Source: Escherichia coli
GTDB lineage: Bacteria; Pseudomonadota; Gammaproteobacteria; Enterobacterales; Enterobacteriaceae
NCBI RefSeq assembly: GCF_003334355.1
Contig: NZ_QOWP01000012.1
Length of the DNA stretch: 64,000 nt
Reading direction: 5' to 3' (one strand)
Each line of letters opens with the position of its first letter. Position 1 is the stretch's first letter. The notes under the pieces are model-generated. The model was not told where the DNA came from. It worked only from the letters and a program-made list of their open reading frames with translations, and searched no databases. Made by a program: the position numbers and the translations under genes. Positions 3,037 through 56,228 of the stretch are shown one piece after another.

Positions 3037-4005
3037 ATGACGATGCCAACGAATCAATGCCCGTGGCGGATGCAGGTTCATCACATTACGCAAGAAACGC
3101 CGGATGTGTGGACGATTTCCCTGATTTGCCACGATTACTACCCATATCGCGCCGGGCAATATGCACTGGTCAGCGTGCGAAACTCAGCGGAAACGCTGCG
3201 TGCTTACACCATTTCCTCCACGCCAGGCGTGAGTGAATATATCACCCTGACCGTGCGGCGGATTGATGACGGTGTCGGCTCCCAGTGGCTGACGCGCGAT
3301 GTAAAACGCGGTGATTATCTCTGGCTTTCGGACGCGATGGGGGAATTTACCTGCGACGATAAAGCAGAAGATAAATTCCTGTTGCTGGCGGCAGGCTGCG
3401 GCGTCACGCCGATTATGTCGATGCGTCGCTGGCTGGCGAAGAACTGTCCACAGGCCGATGTACAGGTGATCTACAACGTGCGCACGCCGCAGGATGTTAT
3501 TTTCGCCGATGAGTGGCGTAACTATCCGGTAACGCTGGTGGCGGAAAATAACGTTACCGAAGGCTTTATCGCTGGTCGTCTCACTCGCGAACTGCTGACT
3601 CGCGTTCCTGACTTAGCTTCACGTACCGTGATGACCTGCGGCCCGGCTCCGTATATGGATTGGGTAGAGCAGGAAGTGAAAGCGCTCGGCGTGACGCGTT
3701 TCTTTAAAGAGAAATTCTTCACCCCAGTAGCGGAAGCAGCGACCAGCGGTCTGAAATTCACCAAACTGCAACCGGCACGAGAATTTTACGCCCCGGTTGG
3801 CACCACGCTACTGGAGGCGCTGGAAAGCAATAACGTTCCGGTTGTCGCCGCCTGCCGTGCGGGTGTTTGCGGCTGCTGTAAGACAAAAGTGGTTTCCGGT
3901 GAATATACGGTGAGCAGCACAATGACGCTGACCGACGCCGAAATCGCTGAAGGTTACGTACTGGCCTGCTCCTGCCATCCGCAGGGGGATTTGGTTCTCG
4001 CATAA
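3037..4005 (+). CDS. hcr: NADH oxidoreductase for Hcp (FAD and 2Fe-2S ferredoxin-reductase-like)
   Basis: 322 aa from the ATG at 3037 with TAAGGAG 7 nt upstream; C-terminal CRAGVCGCC 2Fe-2S motif; starts 12 nt after the hcp stop. Confidence 0.93.
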   Translation: MTMPTNQCPWRMQVHHITQETPDVWTISLICHDYYPYRAGQYALVSVRNSAETLRAYTISSTPGVSEYITLTVRRIDDGVGSQWLTRDVKRGDYLWLSDAMGEFTCDDKAEDKFLLLAAGCGVTPIMSMRRWLAKNCPQADVQVIYNVRTPQDVIFADEWRNYPVTLVAENNVTEGFIAGRLTRELLTRVPDLASRTVMTCGPAPYMDWVEQEVKALGVTRFFKEKFFTPVAEAATSGLKFTKLQPAREFYAPVGTTLLEALESNNVPVVAACRAGVCGCCKTKVVSGEYTVSSTMTLTDAEIAEGYVLACSCHPQGDLVLA

Positions 4006-4137
4006 TCGCCTTATGCTCGATGATATTCCTTTCATCGGGCTATTTAACCGTTAGTGCCTCCTTTCTCTCCCATCCCTTCCCCCTCCGTCAGATGAACTAA
4101 ACTTGTTACCGTTATCACATTCAGGAGATGGAGAACC

Positions 4138-5856
4138 ATGAAACAAACGGTTGCAGCTTATATCGCCAAAACACTCGAATCGGCAGGGGTGAAACGCATC
4201 TGGGGAGTCACAGGCGACTCTCTGAACGGTCTTAGTGACAGTCTTAATCGCATGGGCACCATCGAGTGGATGTCCACCCGCCACGAAGAAGTGGCGGCCT
4301 TTGCCGCTGGCGCTGAAGCACAACTTAGCGGAGAACTGGCGGTCTGCGCCGGATCGTGCGGCCCCGGCAACCTGCACTTAATCAACGGCCTGTTCGATTG
4401 CCACCGCAATCACGTTCCGGTACTGGCGATTGCCGCTCATATTCCCTCCAGCGAAATTGGCAGCGGCTATTTCCAGGAAACCCACCCACAAGAGCTATTC
4501 CGCGAATGTAGTCACTATTGCGAGCTGGTTTCCAGCCCGGAGCAGATCCCACAAGTACTGGCGATTGCCATGCGCAAAGCGGTGCTTAACCGTGGCGTTT
4601 CGGTTGTCGTGTTACCAGGCGACGTGGCGTTAAAACCTGCGCCAGAAGGGGCAACCATGCACTGGTATCATGCGCCACAACCAGTCGTGACGCCGGAAGA
4701 AGAAGAGTTACGCAAACTGGCGCAACTGCTGCGTTATTCCAGCAATATCGCCCTGATGTGTGGCAGCGGCTGCGCGGGGGCGCATAAAGAGTTAGTTGAG
4801 TTTGCCGGGAAAATTAAAGCGCCTATTGTTCATGCCCTGCGCGGTAAAGAACATGTCGAATACGATAATCCGTATGATGTTGGAATGACCGGGTTAATCG
4901 GCTTCTCGTCAGGTTTCCATACCATGATGAACGCCGACACGTTAGTGCTACTCGGCACGCAATTTCCCTACCGCGCCTTCTACCCGACCGATGCCAAAAT
5001 CATTCAGATTGATATCAACCCAGCCAGCATCGGCGCTCACAGCAAGGTGGATATGGCACTGGTCGGCGATATCAAGTCGACTCTGCGTGCATTGCTTCCA
5101 TTGGTGGAAGAAAAAGCCGATCGCAAGTTTCTGGATAAAGCGCTGGAAGATTACCGCGACGCCCGCAAAGGGCTGGACGATTTAGCTAAACCGAGCGAGA
5201 AAGCCATTCACCCGCAATATCTGGCGCAGCAAATTAGTCATTTTGCCGCCGATGACGCTATTTTCACCTGTGACGTTGGTACGCCAACGGTGTGGGCGGC
5301 ACGTTATCTAAAAATGAACGGCAAGCGTCGCCTGTTAGGTTCGTTTAACCACGGTTCGATGGCTAACGCCATGCCGCAGGCGCTGGGTGCGCAGGCGACA
5401 GAGCCAGAACGTCAGGTGGTCGCCATGTGCGGCGATGGCGGTTTTAGCATGTTGATGGGCGATTTCCTCTCAGTAGTGCAGATGAAACTGCCAGTGAAAA
5501 TTGTCGTCTTTAACAACAGCGTGCTGGGCTTTGTGGCGATGGAGATGAAAGCTGGTGGCTATTTGACTGACGGCACCGAACTACACGACACAAACTTTGC
5601 CCGCATTGCCGAAGCGTGCGGCATTACGGGTATCCGTGTAGAAAAAGCGTCTGAAGTTGATGAAGCCCTGCAACGCGCCTTCTCCATCGACGGTCCGGTG
5701 CTGGTGGATGTGGTGGTCGCCAAAGAAGAGTTAGCCATTCCACCGCAGATCAAACTCGAACAGGCCAAAGGATTTAGCTTGTATATGTTGCGCGCAATCA
5801 TCAGCGGACGCGGCGATGAAGTGATCGAACTGGCGAAAACGAACTGGCTAAGGTAA
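4138..5856 (+). CDS. poxB: Pyruvate oxidase (ubiquinone-dependent, thiamine-diphosphate and FAD enzyme)
   Basis: 572 aa; N-terminus [31 protein letters not shown]; GDG thiamine-diphosphate motif ([10 protein letters not shown]). Confidence 0.95.
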
Positions 5857-5892: not shown

Positions 5893-6894
5893 ATGATTGA
5901 TTTACGCAGTGATACCGTTACCCGACCGAGCCGCGCCATGCTCGAAGCAATGATGGCCGCCCCGGTTGGGGACGACGTTTACGGAGACGACCCTACCGTT
6001 AATGCTCTGCAGGACTACGCCGCAGAGCTTTCCGGTAAAGAAGCCGCCATTTTTCTGCCGACCGGCACTCAGGCCAACCTGGTCGCTCTGCTCAGTCACT
6101 GCGAACGTGGCGAAGAGTATATTGTCGGTCAGGCCGCGCATAACTATCTGTTTGAAGCCGGTGGCGCAGCGGTGCTGGGCAGTATTCAGCCGCAACCCAT
6201 CGACGCGGCTGCCGACGGCACGCTACCGCTGGATAAAGTGGCGATGAAAATCAAACCCGACGATATCCATTTCGCCCGCACCAAATTACTCAGTCTGGAA
6301 AACACCCACAACGGCAAAGTGCTGCCGCGTGAATACCTGAAAGAAGCATGGGAATTTACCCGCGAGCGCAATCTGGCGCTGCATGTTGACGGTGCGCGCA
6401 TCTTTAATGCCGTGGTGGCTTACGGCTGCGAACTGAAAGAGATCACGCAATATTGTGATTCGTTCACCATTTGCCTGTCGAAAGGTCTTGGGACGCCAGT
6501 CGGTTCATTACTCGTCGGTAATCGTGATTACATTAAACGTGCCATCCGCTGGCGGAAAATGGCCGGTGGCGGGATGCGTCAGTCCGGGATTCTGGCTGCC
6601 GCCGGGATGTATGCCCTGAAAAATAACGTCGCACGGTTGCAGGAAGATCACGACAACGCCGCCTGGATGGCGGAGCAACTGCGTGAAGCAGGCGCGGATG
6701 TGATGCGTCAGGACACTAATATGCTGTTTGTTCGCGTCGGGGAAGAAAATGCTGCCGCGTTAGGCGAATACATGAAAGCGAGAAACGTGCTGATTAACGC
6801 CTCGCCGATTGTCCGCCTGGTGACGCATCTTGACGTCTCGCGCGAACAACTGGCGGAAGTCGCCGCCCACTGGCGCGCATTCCTGGCGCGTTAA
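5893..6894 (+). CDS. ltaE: Low-specificity L-threonine aldolase (PLP-dependent)
   Basis: 333 aa; [14 protein letters not shown]-terminus typical of threonine aldolases. Confidence 0.93.
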
Positions 6895-6904
6895 GGAGAG
6901 AGAC

Positions 6905-8335
6905 GTGCCGCAACGCATTTTAGTTCTCGGTGCCAGTGGCTACATTGGTCAGCATCTGGTGCGCACACTCAGCCAGCAAGGGCATCAGATCCTGGCGGCG
7001 GCACGTCATGTCGACAGGCTTGCAAAGCTGCAACTGGCAAACGTCAGTTGCCATAAAGTCGATCTCAGCTGGCCGGATAACCTTCCGGCCCTGTTGCAGG
7101 ATATCGATACCGTCTATTTTCTGGTGCACAGCATGGGCGAAGGCGGCGATTTTATCGCTCAGGAGCGCCAGGTGGCTCTCAACGTCCGCGATGCGCTACG
7201 TGAAGTATCAGTTAAGCAATTAATCTTTCTCAGTTCGTTGCAGGCCCCGCCACATGAGCAGTCGGATCATCTGCGTGCTCGTCAGGCTACGGCGGACATT
7301 CTTCGTGAAGCGAATGTACCTGTGACCGAACTTCGGGCCGGAATTATCGTTGGCGCAGGTTCAGCGGCGTTCGAAGTCATGCGCGATATGGTCTACAACC
7401 TGCCAGTGTTAACGCCGCCACGCTGGGTACGTTCACGCACCACGCCCATCGCGCTGGAAAACTTGCTGCACTATCTGGTGGCGTTGTTAGATCATCCGGC
7501 CAGCGAACACCGCATCTTCGAAGCCGCCGGACCAGAGGTGCTCAGTTATCAGCAACAGTTTGAACATTTTATGGCGGTGAGCGGTAAGCGCCGCTGGTTG
7601 ATCCCCATCCCCCTCCCCACCCGCTGGATTTCGGTGTGGTTTCTCAATGTGATTACTTCCGTACCGCCCACCACCGCCAGGGCGTTGATTCAGGGGCTGA
7701 AACACGATCTGCTGGCGGATGATACCGCGCTACGTGCACTCATCCCACAACGGCTGATCGCTTTCGATGACGCGGTACGTAGCACGTTGAAAGAGGAGGA
7801 AAAACTGGTCAACTCCAGCGACTGGGGCTACGACGCTCAGGCCTTTGCCCGCTGGCGACCGGAGTACGGTTATTTTGCCAAACAGGCGGGGTTTACCGTT
7901 AAAACGTCCGCCAGCCTTGCTGCTTTATGGCAGGTAGTGAACCAAATCGGCGGTAAAGAGCGTTATTTCTTTGGCAATATTTTGTGGCAGACACGGGTGT
8001 TGATGGACCGCGCGATCGGTCATAAGCTGGCGAAAGGCCGCCCGGAGCGCGAATATTTACAGACTGGCGATGCGGTAGATAGCTGGAAAGTGATTGTCGT
8101 TGAACCGGAAAAACAACTTACGTTGTTATTTGGCATGAAAGCGCCGGGGCTGGGACGACTGTGTTTTAGCCTGGAAGATAAAGGCGACTATCGTACTATC
8201 GATGTCCGCGCTTTCTGGCATCCGCACGGTATGCCGGGGCTGTTTTACTGGTTATTGATGATCCCCGCGCATCTGTTTATTTTTCGCGGAATGGCAAAAC
8301 AAATCGCCAGACTGGCAGAACAAAGCACAGATTAA
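6905..8335 (+). CDS. ybjT: Uncharacterised NAD(P)-binding Rossmann protein with C-terminal domain of unknown function
   Basis: 476 aa from a GTG at 6905 with GGAGAG upstream (longest ORF begins at a TTG at 6830 inside ltaE); VLGASGYIG dinucleotide-binding motif; called by synteny. Confidence 0.85.
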
Positions 8336-8433
8336 TCGACAAAACCTGCGTTATTCTTTCATGTTTCCCATTGCATCATGGGGGAAATCACGGAAGAATG
8401 CGCACGTTATTTTCTCAACAACAGTGGATTGAT

Positions 8434-9447
8434 ATGAAGGTACTGGTTACCGGCGCCACCAGCGGCTTAGGTCGAAACGCGGTAGAGTTTTTATGCCAGA
8501 AAGGCATCAGCGTGCGAGCGACCGGTCGCAACGAGGCAATGGGCAAATTGCTGGAAAAAATGGGCGCAGAGTTTGTTCCGGCGGATCTGACCGAGCTGGT
8601 TTCATCACAAGCTAAAGTGATGCTCGCGGGCATTGATACGCTGTGGCACTGCTCCAGCTTTACCTCACCCTGGGGGACACAACAGGCTTTCGATCTGGCT
8701 AACGTTCGCGCCACTCGCCGCCTGGGTGAATGGGCTGTCGCCTGGGGTGTGCGTAACTTTATTCATATCTCTTCCCCCTCCCTGTACTTCGATTATCACC
8801 ACCATCGCGATATTAAAGAAGATTTTCGCCCTCACCGCTTCGCCAACGAGTTTGCCCGCAGCAAAGCAGCCAGCGAAGAAGTGATCAATATGCTTTCGCA
8901 GGCGAATCCACAAACGCGCTTTACTATTCTGCGCCCACAAAGTCTGTTCGGACCGCACGATAAAGTCTTTATTCCCCGTCTGGCGCATATGATGCACCAC
9001 TACGGCAGTATTCTGTTACCGCATGGCGGCAGTGCGCTGGTCGATATGACCTACTATGAAAATGCCGTGCACGCAATGTGGCTGGCAAGCCAGGAAGCCT
9101 GCGATAAGCTACCTTCCGGGCGTGTGTACAACATCACCAACGGCGAGCATCGCACACTGCGCAGCATCGTGCAGAAGCTGATCGACGAGTTGAATATTGA
9201 CTGTCGTATTCGTTCCGTCCCCTACCCGATGCTGGATATGATCGCCCGCAGCATGGAGCGTTTAGGCCGCAAGTCAGCAAAAGAGCCGCCGCTGACCCAC
9301 TACGGCGTCTCCAAGTTGAATTTTGACTTTACGCTGGATATTACGCGTGCGCAGGAAGAGTTAGGTTATCAGCCGGTCATCACCCTGGATGAAGGTATCG
9401 AGAAAACTGCCGCCTGGCTACGCGACCACGGAAAACTGCCGCGCTAA
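8434..9447 (+). CDS. ybjS: Uncharacterised NAD-dependent epimerase/dehydratase-family protein
   Basis: 337 aa from the ATG at 8434; VTGATSGLG Rossmann motif; called by synteny. Confidence 0.85.
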
Positions 9448-56077: not shown

Positions 56078-56228
56078 CCTCTCTACCGGAGCCGTGCGCT
56101 CCGGTTTTCCCTTCTTTTTACATCCTGTACATCACATCAAATCATTAAACTTGCATTAACTTATTTATAACTTATATTGTCACATGCAAATCAGAATGGT
56201 TTCGAATGAAAGTTAATGAGAGGTGGTT

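What the first reader, a model, noticed from the sequence alone, without database searches (positions are those of the whole stretch)
4057..4086. 30-nt polypyrimidine tract (29 of 30 C/T) in the hcr-poxB intergenic region
CCTCCTTTCTCTCCCATCCCTTCCCCCTCC lies about 50 bp upstream of the poxB ATG. Such strong strand asymmetry is unusual in E. coli intergenic DNA. It could form non-B DNA, act as an anti-Shine-Dalgarno-like or protein-binding element, or influence the stationary-phase promoter of poxB.
Basis: seen in the sequence. Interest (0 to 1): 0.3.

Follow-up and report, generated by a model that had tools for sequence, protein, structure and literature searches.

The report
Pyrimidine tract inside the poxB promoter
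The 30-base C/T-only stretch is real and statistically unusual, but it sits in the upstream half of the already mapped stationary-phase promoter of the E. coli pyruvate oxidase gene, where published mutagenesis finds no sequence that matters, so it is mostly ordinary.

Summary
The tract (window 4057-4086, 29/30 C/T) is confirmed. It is the only such window in 64 kb, and 0 of 300 shuffles reach it. It lies in the E. coli hcr-poxB spacer. The published poxB start site (G, 27 nt before the ATG) is window 4111, so the tract spans -54 to -25. That is the -35/UP position of a known sigma-S promoter transcribed in vitro only by sigma-38 polymerase.

Reg-Seq mutagenesis of -115..+45 found information only at -18..-8 (-26..0 in heat shock), with no -35 or factor site. 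Between E. coli and E. albertii the tract diverges at the neutral rate (10/30), while -24..-1 is nearly invariant. Most Enterobacteriaceae keep the same -10 and leader without the tract.

My best reading is a passive, sequence-unread spacer: it supplies no -35 or UP element.

Pyrimidine richness does recur where hcr directly abuts poxB (Salmonella 27/30, Buttiauxella 26/30). If transcribed from hcr, the E. coli tract is predicted to mask the poxB ribosome site and resembles a Rho loading site. This insulator idea is untested and is not seen in E. albertii.

H-DNA and canonical G4/i-motif criteria are not met.

The parts
4057..4086 (+). Polypyrimidine tract (29/30 C/T; 19 C, 0 G). It spans -54..-25 relative to the poxB transcription start, which is the position where a -35 hexamer and proximal UP element would lie.
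   Evidence: for the sequence and statistics. Reg-Seq makes no call here.
4015..4040 (+). hcr terminator-like hairpin: 9-bp stem (4015-4023 / 4032-4040) and 8-nt loop, followed by a weak U-tail, TATTTAAC (4041-4048). This strain has a G.U pair in the stem where K-12 has G-C.
   Evidence: Inverted repeat I3. Fold energy is -14.3 kcal/mol in the window and -17.3 in K-12, z -4.9 and -6.7. Equivalent hairpins are present in E. albertii, Salmonella and Buttiauxella. Function as a terminator is inferred, not shown.
4042..4060 (-). Marbox-like sequence GAGGCACTAACGGTTAAAT in backward orientation, centred at -60. It overlaps the first 4 nt of the tract and contains the GTTAGTG '-60 motif' noted by Chang et al. 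1994.
   Evidence: It has 2 mismatches to AYNGCACNNWNNRYYAAAY, but the window holds 16 such matches against 17 expected, so the match alone is not significant. MarA/SoxS are listed as poxB regulators and called 'low evidence'. The motif table is in PMC5650638.
4097..4104 (+). Extended -10 element CTAAACTT (hexamer TAAACT at 4098-4103, preceded by C) of the sigma-S poxB promoter.
   Evidence: Sequence. CTANRCTT is conserved at -41..-43 from the ATG across Enterobacteriaceae. The Reg-Seq significant region is -18..-8. The -10 TAAACT is attributed to Chang 1994.
4111..4111 (+). poxB transcription start (G), 27 nt upstream of the ATG; equals MG1655 coordinate 911076.
   Evidence: Olvera 2009 5'RACE and in vitro transcription. 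TSS 911076 was used by Reg-Seq. The published promoter string ...GTTACCG ends at window 4111.
4123..4135 (+). Purine-rich Shine-Dalgarno region AGGAGATGGAGAA of poxB. It is the predicted pairing partner of tract positions 4066-4080 in a hypothetical read-through RNA.
   Evidence: Sequence. MFE pairs are listed.
4138..5856 (+). poxB coding sequence (572 aa).
   Evidence: ORF list and RefSeq annotation under the BLAST matches.
3037..4005 (+). hcr coding sequence (322 aa), co-directional and immediately upstream.
   Evidence: ORF list, annotation and homologues.

Best explanation
The tract is the upstream half (-54 to -25) of the known sigma-S (RpoS) dependent poxB promoter. It lies between the hcr terminator hairpin plus a marbox-like site (centre -60) and the extended -10 element CTAAACTT.

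It works by what it lacks. It offers no TTGACA-like -35 hexamer and no A/T-rich UP element. As a result sigma-70 polymerase cannot use the promoter, whereas sigma-S polymerase, which relies on the extended -10, can. The individual bases of the tract are not read by polymerase or by any detected factor. It is a spacer whose sequence drifts at the neutral rate.

Status of each step:
- Shown (literature): the start-site position, sigma-38-only transcription in vitro, and information confined to the -10 region.
- Shown here: the lack of a -35 match, neutral-rate divergence, and dispensability in other genera.
- Inferred: that the absence of -35/UP is the tract's only contribution to promoter behaviour.
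For: 1. The TSS is a G 27 nt before the ATG, which is window 4111. The published promoter string TCCCTTCCCCCTCCGTCAGATGAACTAAACTTGTTACCG matches window 4073-4111. The promoter is transcribed in vitro only by E-sigma38 (PMC2759082).
2. The review table of Chang 1994 gives -10 TAAACT, no -35, and motifs CGTCA at -25 and GTTAGTG at -60. These two motifs flank the tract exactly.
3. The sigma-70 promoter scan finds 0 sites in 3900-4250.
4. Reg-Seq mutagenesis of -115..+45 gives architecture (0,0). The only significant regions are -18..-8 (three conditions) and -26..0 (heat shock), all labelled -10. Most other promoters in the same table get a -35 call.
5. In vitro profiling shows that sigma-S promoters generally lack a conserved -35 and lack the A/T-rich -60..-40 region (PMC3141248).
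6. E. coli versus E. albertii divergence is 10/30 in the tract. That equals the four-fold-site divergence (0.38 in poxB, 0.31 in hcr). By contrast it is 1/24 for -24..-1 and 3/27 for the leader.
7. About 30 genera keep the same -10, leader and SD but have a different, purine-rich upstream region with a divergent doxX gene. One E. coli strain (GF131) has that arrangement, and its homology to other E. coli resumes exactly at ACTAAACTT.
8. CRISPRa with SoxS placed at -81/-91 activates poxB 10-34 fold, consistent with a weak, activator-responsive core promoter.
Against: A purely passive spacer does not explain why the stretch is so extreme (29/30). It also does not explain why the homologous Salmonella segment is still 27/30 pyrimidine after much longer divergence. 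Nor does it explain why pyrimidine richness tracks hcr adjacency: mean max-Y30 is 25.1 in compact hcr-adjacent taxa against a null 95th percentile of 22, and the Mann-Whitney test on Y fraction gives p = 0.0007.

Reg-Seq used ~10% point mutagenesis, in conditions where the promoter was only weakly active (significant calls in 4 conditions) and apparently without SoxS/MarA induction (my understanding of the method, not checked in the text). A compositional or structural property, or an activator-dependent role, could therefore escape it.
Confidence: 0.55

Rival explanations
1. Read-through insulator acting on RNA. Transcripts that escape the weak hcr terminator carry the tract as a C/U-rich, G-poor untranslated segment.

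This segment would do two things. It would load Rho (a rut-like 'C>G bubble') to stop transcription before or inside poxB. It would also pair with the purine-rich poxB Shine-Dalgarno/AUG region so that surviving read-through RNA is not translated. poxB would then be expressed only from its own sigma-S start site, which lies downstream of the tract.
For: 1. The 78-nt window 4040-4117 has C 36%, G 10% and C/G 3.5. The best window (C/G 3.6) is at the 99.95th percentile of the 64 kb.
2. The predicted energy to open the poxB ribosome site (-15..+5) is 5.6 kcal/mol in the native leader and 11.0 in read-through RNA. Replacing only the tract with random genomic 30-mers gives 5.4 +/- 1.3, and 0 of 150 reach the observed value.
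3. The MFE pairs 4045-4080 with 4124-4153. The 181-nt fold has z = -2.2.
4. All 10 compact hcr-adjacent taxa show higher opening energy in read-through than in native RNA. In Buttiauxella it is 16.6 against 8.9 +/- 1.5.
5. Sense-strand pyrimidine richness is found where hcr directly precedes poxB. It is absent where a convergent doxX gene intervenes.
6. The hcr hairpin has only a weak U-tail, UAUUUAA.
Against: No evidence was found that read-through transcripts exist. Term-seq with bicyclomycin lists no 3' end or Rho region here, and SMRT-Cappable-seq tables do not mention hcr or poxB. These data are from cultures in which I expect hcp-hcr to be poorly expressed (my knowledge), so they are uninformative rather than negative.

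In E. albertii, the closest tract-bearing relative, the occlusion is not above controls (9.3 vs 8.4 +/- 1.9), and its MFE does not pair the tract with the SD. Salmonella is marginal (8.8 vs 6.7 +/- 1.6, fraction 0.10). The 101-nt fold is no more stable than shuffles (z = +1.1). Any pyrimidine-rich RNA will pair with a GGAG-rich site, so the prediction is cheap.
Confidence: 0.25
2. Sequence- or composition-specific contact with the transcription machinery. In this reading the C-rich DNA at -35 is itself a positive determinant for sigma-S polymerase (the 'CCGACA'-type C-rich -35 proposed by Wise et al. 1996). Alternatively, it is the docking surface for alpha-CTD when MarA/SoxS/Rob bind the adjacent marbox-like site.
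For: A review cites Wise 1996 for a CCGACA -35 consensus in rpoS-dependent genes. Olvera 2009 cites Wise 1996 for the poxB promoter. A marbox-like site is centred at -60 in backward orientation, which as I recall is the class I geometry. MarA and SoxS are listed as regulators. There are no indels between E. coli strains and E. albertii across 4042-4110 despite 33% substitution in a slippage-prone sequence, which hints at constrained spacing.
Against: Reg-Seq found no -35 or factor footprint. The best match to any -35 hexamer at 16-18 bp spacing is about 2/6 by my reading of the sequence, and CCGTCA (4085-4090) lies only 7 bp from the -10. The tract diverges at the neutral rate. doxX-type promoters work with a purine-rich upstream region. 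Salmonella lacks the GCAC marbox core and has an 11-nt insertion. The MarA/SoxS sites are rated low evidence. The Wise 1996 paper could not be read.
Confidence: 0.1
3. Non-B DNA switch. Under negative supercoiling or low pH, the homopurine-homopyrimidine duplex would adopt H-DNA, or a G-quadruplex/i-motif pair, and so modulate promoter opening in stationary phase.
For: The duplex is a 30-bp R.Y tract with C runs of 2-5. The G4Hunter score is 1.76 on the minus strand, one of only three regions >=1.5 in 64 kb. Both promoter types show R.Y strand asymmetry above the null, although on opposite strands.
Against: There are no perfect mirror-repeat arms >=6 nt, and mirror symmetry is the defining requirement for H-DNA. 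No canonical motif of four G3+ or C3+ runs overlaps the tract; there are only three runs of >=3. The tract drifts neutrally, and E. albertii loses several C runs. Point mutations are silent in Reg-Seq.
Confidence: 0.05

Closest known systems
Sigma-S (RpoS) dependent, -35-less promoters of E. coli (for example fic, and the poxB promoter itself as described by Chang, Wang & Cronan 1994 and Olvera et al. 2009)
   Same: It has an extended -10 CTAAACTT with an upstream C. The start site is 7-8 nt downstream. There is no recognisable -35 and no A/T-rich -40..-60 region. Transcription in vitro is by sigma-38 only, and information is confined to the -10 region.
   Different: Nothing about the promoter differs; this is that promoter. 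What has not been discussed in the papers I could read is that the -35/UP position is filled by an almost pure pyrimidine run.
Rho utilisation (rut) sites, also described as a 'C>G bubble' (my knowledge of lambda tR1 and trp t')
   Same: It is a long C-rich, G-poor stretch on the sense strand, in an untranslated region just after a stop codon and a weak hairpin.
   Different: No transcript covering it and no bicyclomycin-sensitive 3' end has been shown. It lies in the non-transcribed part of the downstream promoter.
Anti-Shine-Dalgarno occlusion hairpins in 5' leaders
   Same: A CU-rich stretch is complementary to the GGAG-rich ribosome site 50 nt downstream, with a predicted 5.6 kcal/mol extra opening cost.
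   Different: The tract is upstream of the mapped start site, so it is not in the gene's own mRNA. The pairing is not conserved in E. albertii.
H-DNA-forming homopurine-homopyrimidine mirror repeats, and the intrastrand triplex motifs (TMECO) of E. coli (PMC4666352)
   Same: It is a homopurine-homopyrimidine duplex of 30 bp.
   Different: There is no mirror symmetry. It is single-copy rather than a dispersed repeat. poxB and hcr are not mentioned in that survey.

Membership tests
Sigma-S dependent promoter | Extended -10 element resembling KCTAYRCTT, with a C immediately upstream of the hexamer | tested here: met
   CTAAACTT lies at 4097-4104. CTANRCTT is conserved at the same distance from the ATG in about 45 enterobacterial loci.
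Sigma-S dependent promoter | Mapped transcription start a few nt downstream of the -10, plus rpoS dependence or E-sigmaS transcription | not testable with these tools
   Literature only. 5'RACE places a G 27 nt before the ATG, which is window 4111. Transcripts are reduced in rpoS mutants. The promoter is transcribed in vitro only by sigma-38 (PMC2759082).
Sigma-S dependent promoter | Degenerate or absent -35 and no A/T-rich UP element | tested here: met
   There are 0 sigma-70-like sites in 3900-4250. The -54..-25 region is 63% C with no A-tract. Reg-Seq makes no -35 call.
Rho utilisation (rut) site | About 70-80 nt of C-rich, G-poor RNA | tested here: met
   C/G is 3.5 for 4040-4117. The best window is at the 99.95th percentile of the 64 kb.
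Rho utilisation (rut) site | Lies on a transcribed, untranslated RNA with Rho-dependent (bicyclomycin-sensitive) 3' ends downstream | tested here: inconclusive
   No 3' end or Rho region is listed for MG1655 coordinates 9109xx-9112xx in the Adams 2021 tables. I expect hcp-hcr to be poorly expressed in those cultures (my knowledge).
Anti-Shine-Dalgarno occlusion element | Complementarity that measurably sequesters the ribosome-binding site | tested here: met
   This is a prediction for E. coli only. Opening energy is 11.0 against 5.4 +/- 1.3 kcal/mol, and 0 of 150 controls reach it. Pairs are listed.
Anti-Shine-Dalgarno occlusion element | Present on the same mRNA as the ribosome-binding site it controls | tested here: not met
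   The tract is -54..-25, upstream of the only mapped start site.
Anti-Shine-Dalgarno occlusion element | Pairing conserved in relatives | tested here: not met
   In E. albertii the occlusion is not above controls, and the MFE pairs 4045-4060 with the -10 region instead. Salmonella is marginal.
H-DNA (intramolecular triplex) | Homopurine-homopyrimidine tract with mirror-repeat symmetry | tested here: not met
   The R.Y tract is present, but there are no perfect mirror arms >=6 nt with spacers of 0-8 nt in 4040-4100.
G-quadruplex / i-motif | Four runs of >=3 G (or C) separated by loops of 1-7 nt | tested here: not met
   No canonical G3 or C3 motif overlaps the tract; only C2-type motifs do. 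The G4Hunter score is 1.76.
Marbox (MarA/SoxS/Rob site), for the flanking element | Match to AYNGCACNNWNNRYYAAAY at a class I position and orientation | tested here: inconclusive
   There are 2 mismatches at 4042-4060 (-), centre -60. The window has 16 such matches against 17 expected. The GCAC and RYYAAA cores are kept in E. albertii but absent in Salmonella. Binding is rated low evidence in the literature.
UP element | A/T-rich sequence at -40..-60 contacted by alpha-CTD | tested here: not met
   The tract has 19 C, 10 T, 1 A and 0 G.

The most novel reading that the evidence does not exclude
The tract is the core of a transcriptional and translational insulator between two adjacent operons with opposite physiology: hcp-hcr (anaerobic, nitrosative stress) and poxB (aerobic stationary phase).

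On RNA that reads through the weak hcr terminator, it would act as a Rho-loading C-rich segment. In E. coli it would also act as an anti-Shine-Dalgarno that masks the poxB ribosome site. PoxB would then be made only from its own sigma-S start site downstream of the tract. Selection on this RNA-level role would explain two observations. First, pyrimidine richness persists from Escherichia to Salmonella and Buttiauxella while the sequence drifts. Second, it is absent where a convergent doxX gene separates hcr from poxB.
Probability: 0.25. Interest if true: 0.45.

Novelty: already known. Interest (0 to 1): 0.2.

Why it matters
As it stands the finding matters little. It re-discovers the upstream part of a promoter that was mapped in 1994, re-mapped in 2009 and saturation-mutagenised in 2020, and the tract carries no detectable sequence information.

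It is a clean illustration that a sigma-S promoter can consist of an extended -10 alone, with compositionally odd DNA where the -35 would be.

The comparative pattern would be of modest interest if it reflects an RNA-level insulator between neighbouring operons. That pattern is pyrimidine richness only where hcr abuts poxB. The idea is cheap to test.

Tried and rejected
1. Small inversion. I tested whether the E. coli tract is an inverted copy of the purine-rich AAGGGGGAAATGAGAAG motif of doxX-type promoters. Local alignment scores are no better than composition-matched shuffles in 9 of 10 comparisons. The exception (L005, p 0.01) aligned the marbox-like GGCAC(T)AACG(C)GTTAAA, not the tract.
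2. Tandem-repeat or microsatellite origin. TRF finds nothing at score >=30, and there are no direct repeats.
3. Known RNA family. Rfam gives only a chance hit (E 0.32), and it lies inside hcr.
4. Small ORFs. GTG4054-TGA4095 would encode MPPFSPIPSPSVR. It has no Shine-Dalgarno, an all-pyrimidine run cannot contain stop codons anyway, and E. albertii differs at 5 of 13 residues (my reading). A minus-strand ATG with a GGAGG upstream gives 9 codons and is absent in E. albertii.
5. Same tract in other promoters. The closest look-alike in the window (8768-8783, TCTCTTCCCCCTCCCT) lies inside the ORF at 8371-9447.
6. Marbox by count. The match is not above chance.
7. Evidence for read-through or Rho. 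Term-seq/BCM tables, SMRT-Cappable-seq tables and a nitrate RNA-seq paper gave nothing usable.
8. Wise et al. 1996 (PMC178012) is not held, so its C-rich -35 claim is known to me only second-hand.
9. Intrastrand triplex (TMECO) survey. It does not mention this locus.

Full report
OBSERVATION. Window 4057-4086 (+) reads CCTCCTTTCTCTCCCATCCCTTCCCCCTCC: 29 of 30 pyrimidines, with one A at 4072 and no G. The hcr ORF ends at 4005 and poxB starts at 4138, so the tract ends 51 nt before the ATG. BLAST against 5,426 complete E. coli genomes finds the locus, annotated hcr|poxB, in 5,425 of them. The 135-nt spacer is at least 95% identical in 5,406 of 5,426 records.

The tract is a statistical outlier. 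It is the only 30-nt window in 64 kb with >=29 purines or pyrimidines, and the runners-up score 26. None of 300 dinucleotide-preserving shuffles reaches 29. The iid expectation is about 0.27 per 4.64 Mb. Across 460 kb of related enterobacterial loci, the only windows >=27/30 are the orthologous tracts of E. albertii and Salmonella.

WHERE IT SITS. Olvera et al. 2009 mapped the poxB start by 5'RACE and in vitro transcription to a G 27 nt upstream of the ATG, the same site as reported earlier. Their printed promoter string, TCCCTTCCCCCTCCGTCAGATGAACTAAACTTGTTACCG, matches window 4073-4111, so +1 is 4111. Reg-Seq uses the same start, MG1655 911076.

The tract is therefore -54..-25. Downstream lies the extended -10 CTAAACTT (4097-4104). 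Upstream lie the hcr hairpin at 4015-4040 (-14.3 kcal/mol here, -17.3 in K-12, followed by the weak tail TATTTAAC) and a marbox-like sequence at 4042-4060 on the minus strand, centred at -60. A review table of Chang et al. 1994 lists for poxB a -10 of TAAACT, no -35, and motifs CGTCA at -25 and GTTAGTG at -60. Those two motifs are the immediate flanks of the tract (4086-4090 and 4050-4056), which cross-checks the coordinates.

WHAT EXPERIMENTS ALREADY SAY. The promoter is transcribed in vitro only by sigma-38 polymerase, unlike the other promoters tested in that study. A sigma-70 consensus scan finds nothing in 3900-4250.

Reg-Seq (Ireland et al. 2020) mutagenised -115..+45. It classed poxB as architecture (0,0), a promoter 'with only RNAP-binding sites'. 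Its table of significant regions lists for poxB only -18..-8 (iron, zinc and xylose/arabinose conditions) and -26..0 (heat shock), all labelled '-10'. Most neighbouring promoters in the same table receive a '-35' call.

There are caveats. The calls come from only 4 conditions. As I understand the method, mutagenesis is about 10% per base, in growing cultures without SoxS/MarA induction. MarA and SoxS are listed as regulators, but their sites are rated low evidence. General work on sigma-S promoters finds no conserved -35 and no A/T-rich -60..-40 region.

COMPARATIVE EVIDENCE. I fetched 80 poxB loci from other species, plus Salmonella and several E. coli.

1. The -10 (CTANRCTT), the ~27-nt leader and the GGAG-rich ribosome site are conserved at fixed distance from the ATG across Enterobacteriaceae. 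Sequence upstream of about -14 is not.

2. Most genera (Citrobacter, Enterobacter, Klebsiella, Kosakonia and others) carry a divergent doxX gene between hcr and poxB. They have a purine-rich upstream region instead of the tract. One E. coli strain, GF131, has this arrangement, and its homology to other E. coli resumes exactly at ACTAAACTT. The tract is therefore dispensable for a poxB promoter with the same -10.

3. Between E. coli and E. albertii the tract differs at 10 of 30 positions (7 transitions, 3 transversions) and has no indels. That equals the divergence at four-fold degenerate sites (102/269 in poxB, 52/166 in hcr). By contrast, -24..-1 differs at 1/24 and the leader at 3/27. Nine sampled E. 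coli differ in the tract only by a C/T polymorphism at 4065. On this timescale the tract drifts neutrally.

4. The stretch is nevertheless pyrimidine-rich wherever hcr directly abuts poxB in the compact arrangement: E. albertii 28/30, Salmonella 27/30, Buttiauxella 26/30, strain LSJC7 25/30, Serratia 24-25 and Rahnella 23-26. In the 70 nt upstream of the -10, the mean maximum is 25.1 for this group, against a null mean of 18 and a 95th percentile of 22. doxX-type promoters average 15.4 for pyrimidines but 21.4 for purines. The Y fraction over about -57..-15 is 0.61 against 0.44 (Mann-Whitney p = 0.0007, not corrected for phylogeny). The E. coli and Salmonella spacers align, sharing the hairpin and a TCCTTTC core. 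Salmonella has an 11-nt insertion and no GCAC marbox core. Composition, but not sequence, therefore seems to persist over long times.

HOW IT MOST LIKELY WORKS. My best-supported reading (confidence about 0.55) is that the tract is a passive spacer in a -35-less sigma-S promoter. It contributes by providing neither a -35 hexamer nor a UP element. This fits the sigma-38-only transcription, the -10-only information footprint, the neutral drift and the dispensability in other genera. It is also consistent with 10-34-fold activation when SoxS is tethered upstream by CRISPRa, as expected for a weak, activator-responsive core. The inferred step is that nothing else about the tract matters for the promoter.

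THE MAIN RIVAL (about 0.25) tries to explain the compositional persistence. If RNA polymerase reads through the hcr hairpin, the tract becomes a C/U-rich, G-poor untranslated RNA. The 78-nt window 4040-4117 has C/G 3.5, and the best window is at the 99.95th percentile of the 64 kb, which is rut-like.

In the predicted fold of read-through RNA, 4045-4080 pairs with 4124-4153, covering the Shine-Dalgarno, the AUG and codons 2-5. The energy needed to open -15..+5 rises from 5.6 kcal/mol in the native leader to 11.0. Replacing only the tract with random genomic 30-mers returns it to 5.4 +/- 1.3, and 0 of 150 controls reach the observed value. All ten compact hcr-adjacent taxa show the same direction of effect, strongly so in Buttiauxella.

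Several points count against this rival. E. albertii shows no excess over controls, and its MFE does not pair the tract with the SD. Salmonella is marginal. The 101-nt fold is not unusually stable. I also found no evidence that read-through transcripts exist. The Term-seq/bicyclomycin and SMRT-Cappable-seq tables list nothing here, but I expect hcp-hcr to be poorly expressed in those cultures. Since the tract is upstream of the only mapped start, it cannot be an anti-SD for the native mRNA.

OTHER READINGS.
- Non-B DNA: there are no mirror arms >=6 nt, so the defining feature of H-DNA is missing. No canonical four-run G4 or i-motif overlaps the tract. The G4Hunter score is 1.76. I give this about 0.05.
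- Specific contacts: these would be a C-rich -35 as proposed by Wise 1996 (known to me only; the paper is not held) or alpha-CTD docking next to the marbox-like site. They are disfavoured by Reg-Seq, by the neutral drift and by the Salmonella arrangement. I give this about 0.1.
- The marbox-like match itself is not above chance by count: 16 matches against 17 expected.

REJECTED IDEAS. The inversion of a doxX-type purine motif was not supported. Nor were a tandem-repeat origin, a known RNA family or small ORFs (reading).

VERDICT. The available evidence says its bases are not read. I rate novelty as already known and interest as low (0.2). The only reading with some novelty is the read-through insulator. 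It is testable with two reporter constructs and a bicyclomycin experiment.

Noticed in passing
L082 1957-2391 (E. coli GF131, NZ_CP172134.1), versus window 4006-4096: One E. coli genome carries a 144-aa DoxX-family gene, divergent from poxB, between hcr and poxB, in place of the usual 132-bp spacer. Homology to other E. coli resumes at ACTAAACTT. This is the arrangement of Citrobacter, Enterobacter and Klebsiella (doxX 72-86% identical). It is either a rare retained ancestral state or a recombinational import.
   Followed up: partly
L003, L004, L009, L010, L013, L017 and others, about -60..-90 from the poxB ATG: doxX-type poxB/doxX divergent promoter regions share a conserved purine-rich motif, AAT(A/N)AGGGGG(A/T)A, on the poxB-sense strand. 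Max purine count per 30 nt is 23-25 in many loci. Its function is unknown; it could belong to the doxX promoter or leader.
   Followed up: no
window 7591-7633: GATCCCCATCCCCCTCCCCACCCGC is the strongest G4Hunter region in the 64 kb (-2.44) and the window's only canonical four-run C3+ (i-motif/G4) motif. It lies inside the ORF 6830-8335, which I take to be ybjT from my recollection of the K-12 gene order.
   Followed up: no
window 4046-4055 / 4143-4152 and 3992-3999 / 4131-4138: Two long-range inverted repeats were found. One links the region just upstream of the tract to poxB codons 2-5. The other links the end of hcr to the poxB SD-ATG junction (GAGAACCA). They cross each other and would exist only in read-through RNA. 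E. albertii has a C-to-A change in the first one.
   Followed up: partly
window 4017: This strain has T where K-12 and the other 7 sampled E. coli have C, in the 5' arm of the hcr hairpin. This turns a G-C pair into G.U and weakens the fold from -17.3 to -14.3 kcal/mol.
   Followed up: partly
L005 about -100 from the poxB ATG (Citrobacter sp. R56): ACGGCACAACGCGTTAAAC matches the marbox consensus with one mismatch (my hand count), in the forward orientation. It sits at a different position from the backward E. coli site, suggesting that MarA/SoxS/Rob control of poxB may be reinvented in different lineages.
   Followed up: no
window 56090-56190: This region holds the most extreme C>G window of the 64 kb on the plus strand (C 18, G 3 in 78 nt). 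It begins with TTTTCCCTTCTTTTT and continues into very A/T-rich sequence.
   Followed up: no
E. coli genome search: Six of the 5,430 matches to the hcr-poxB spacer are on records typed as plasmids, and some genomes hold up to 3 copies. These were not examined.
   Followed up: no
window 8768-8783: TCTCTTCCCCCTCCCT, a 16-nt all-pyrimidine run resembling the 3' half of the tract, lies inside the ORF 8371-9447. I take this to be ybjS from my recollection of the K-12 gene order.
   Followed up: partly
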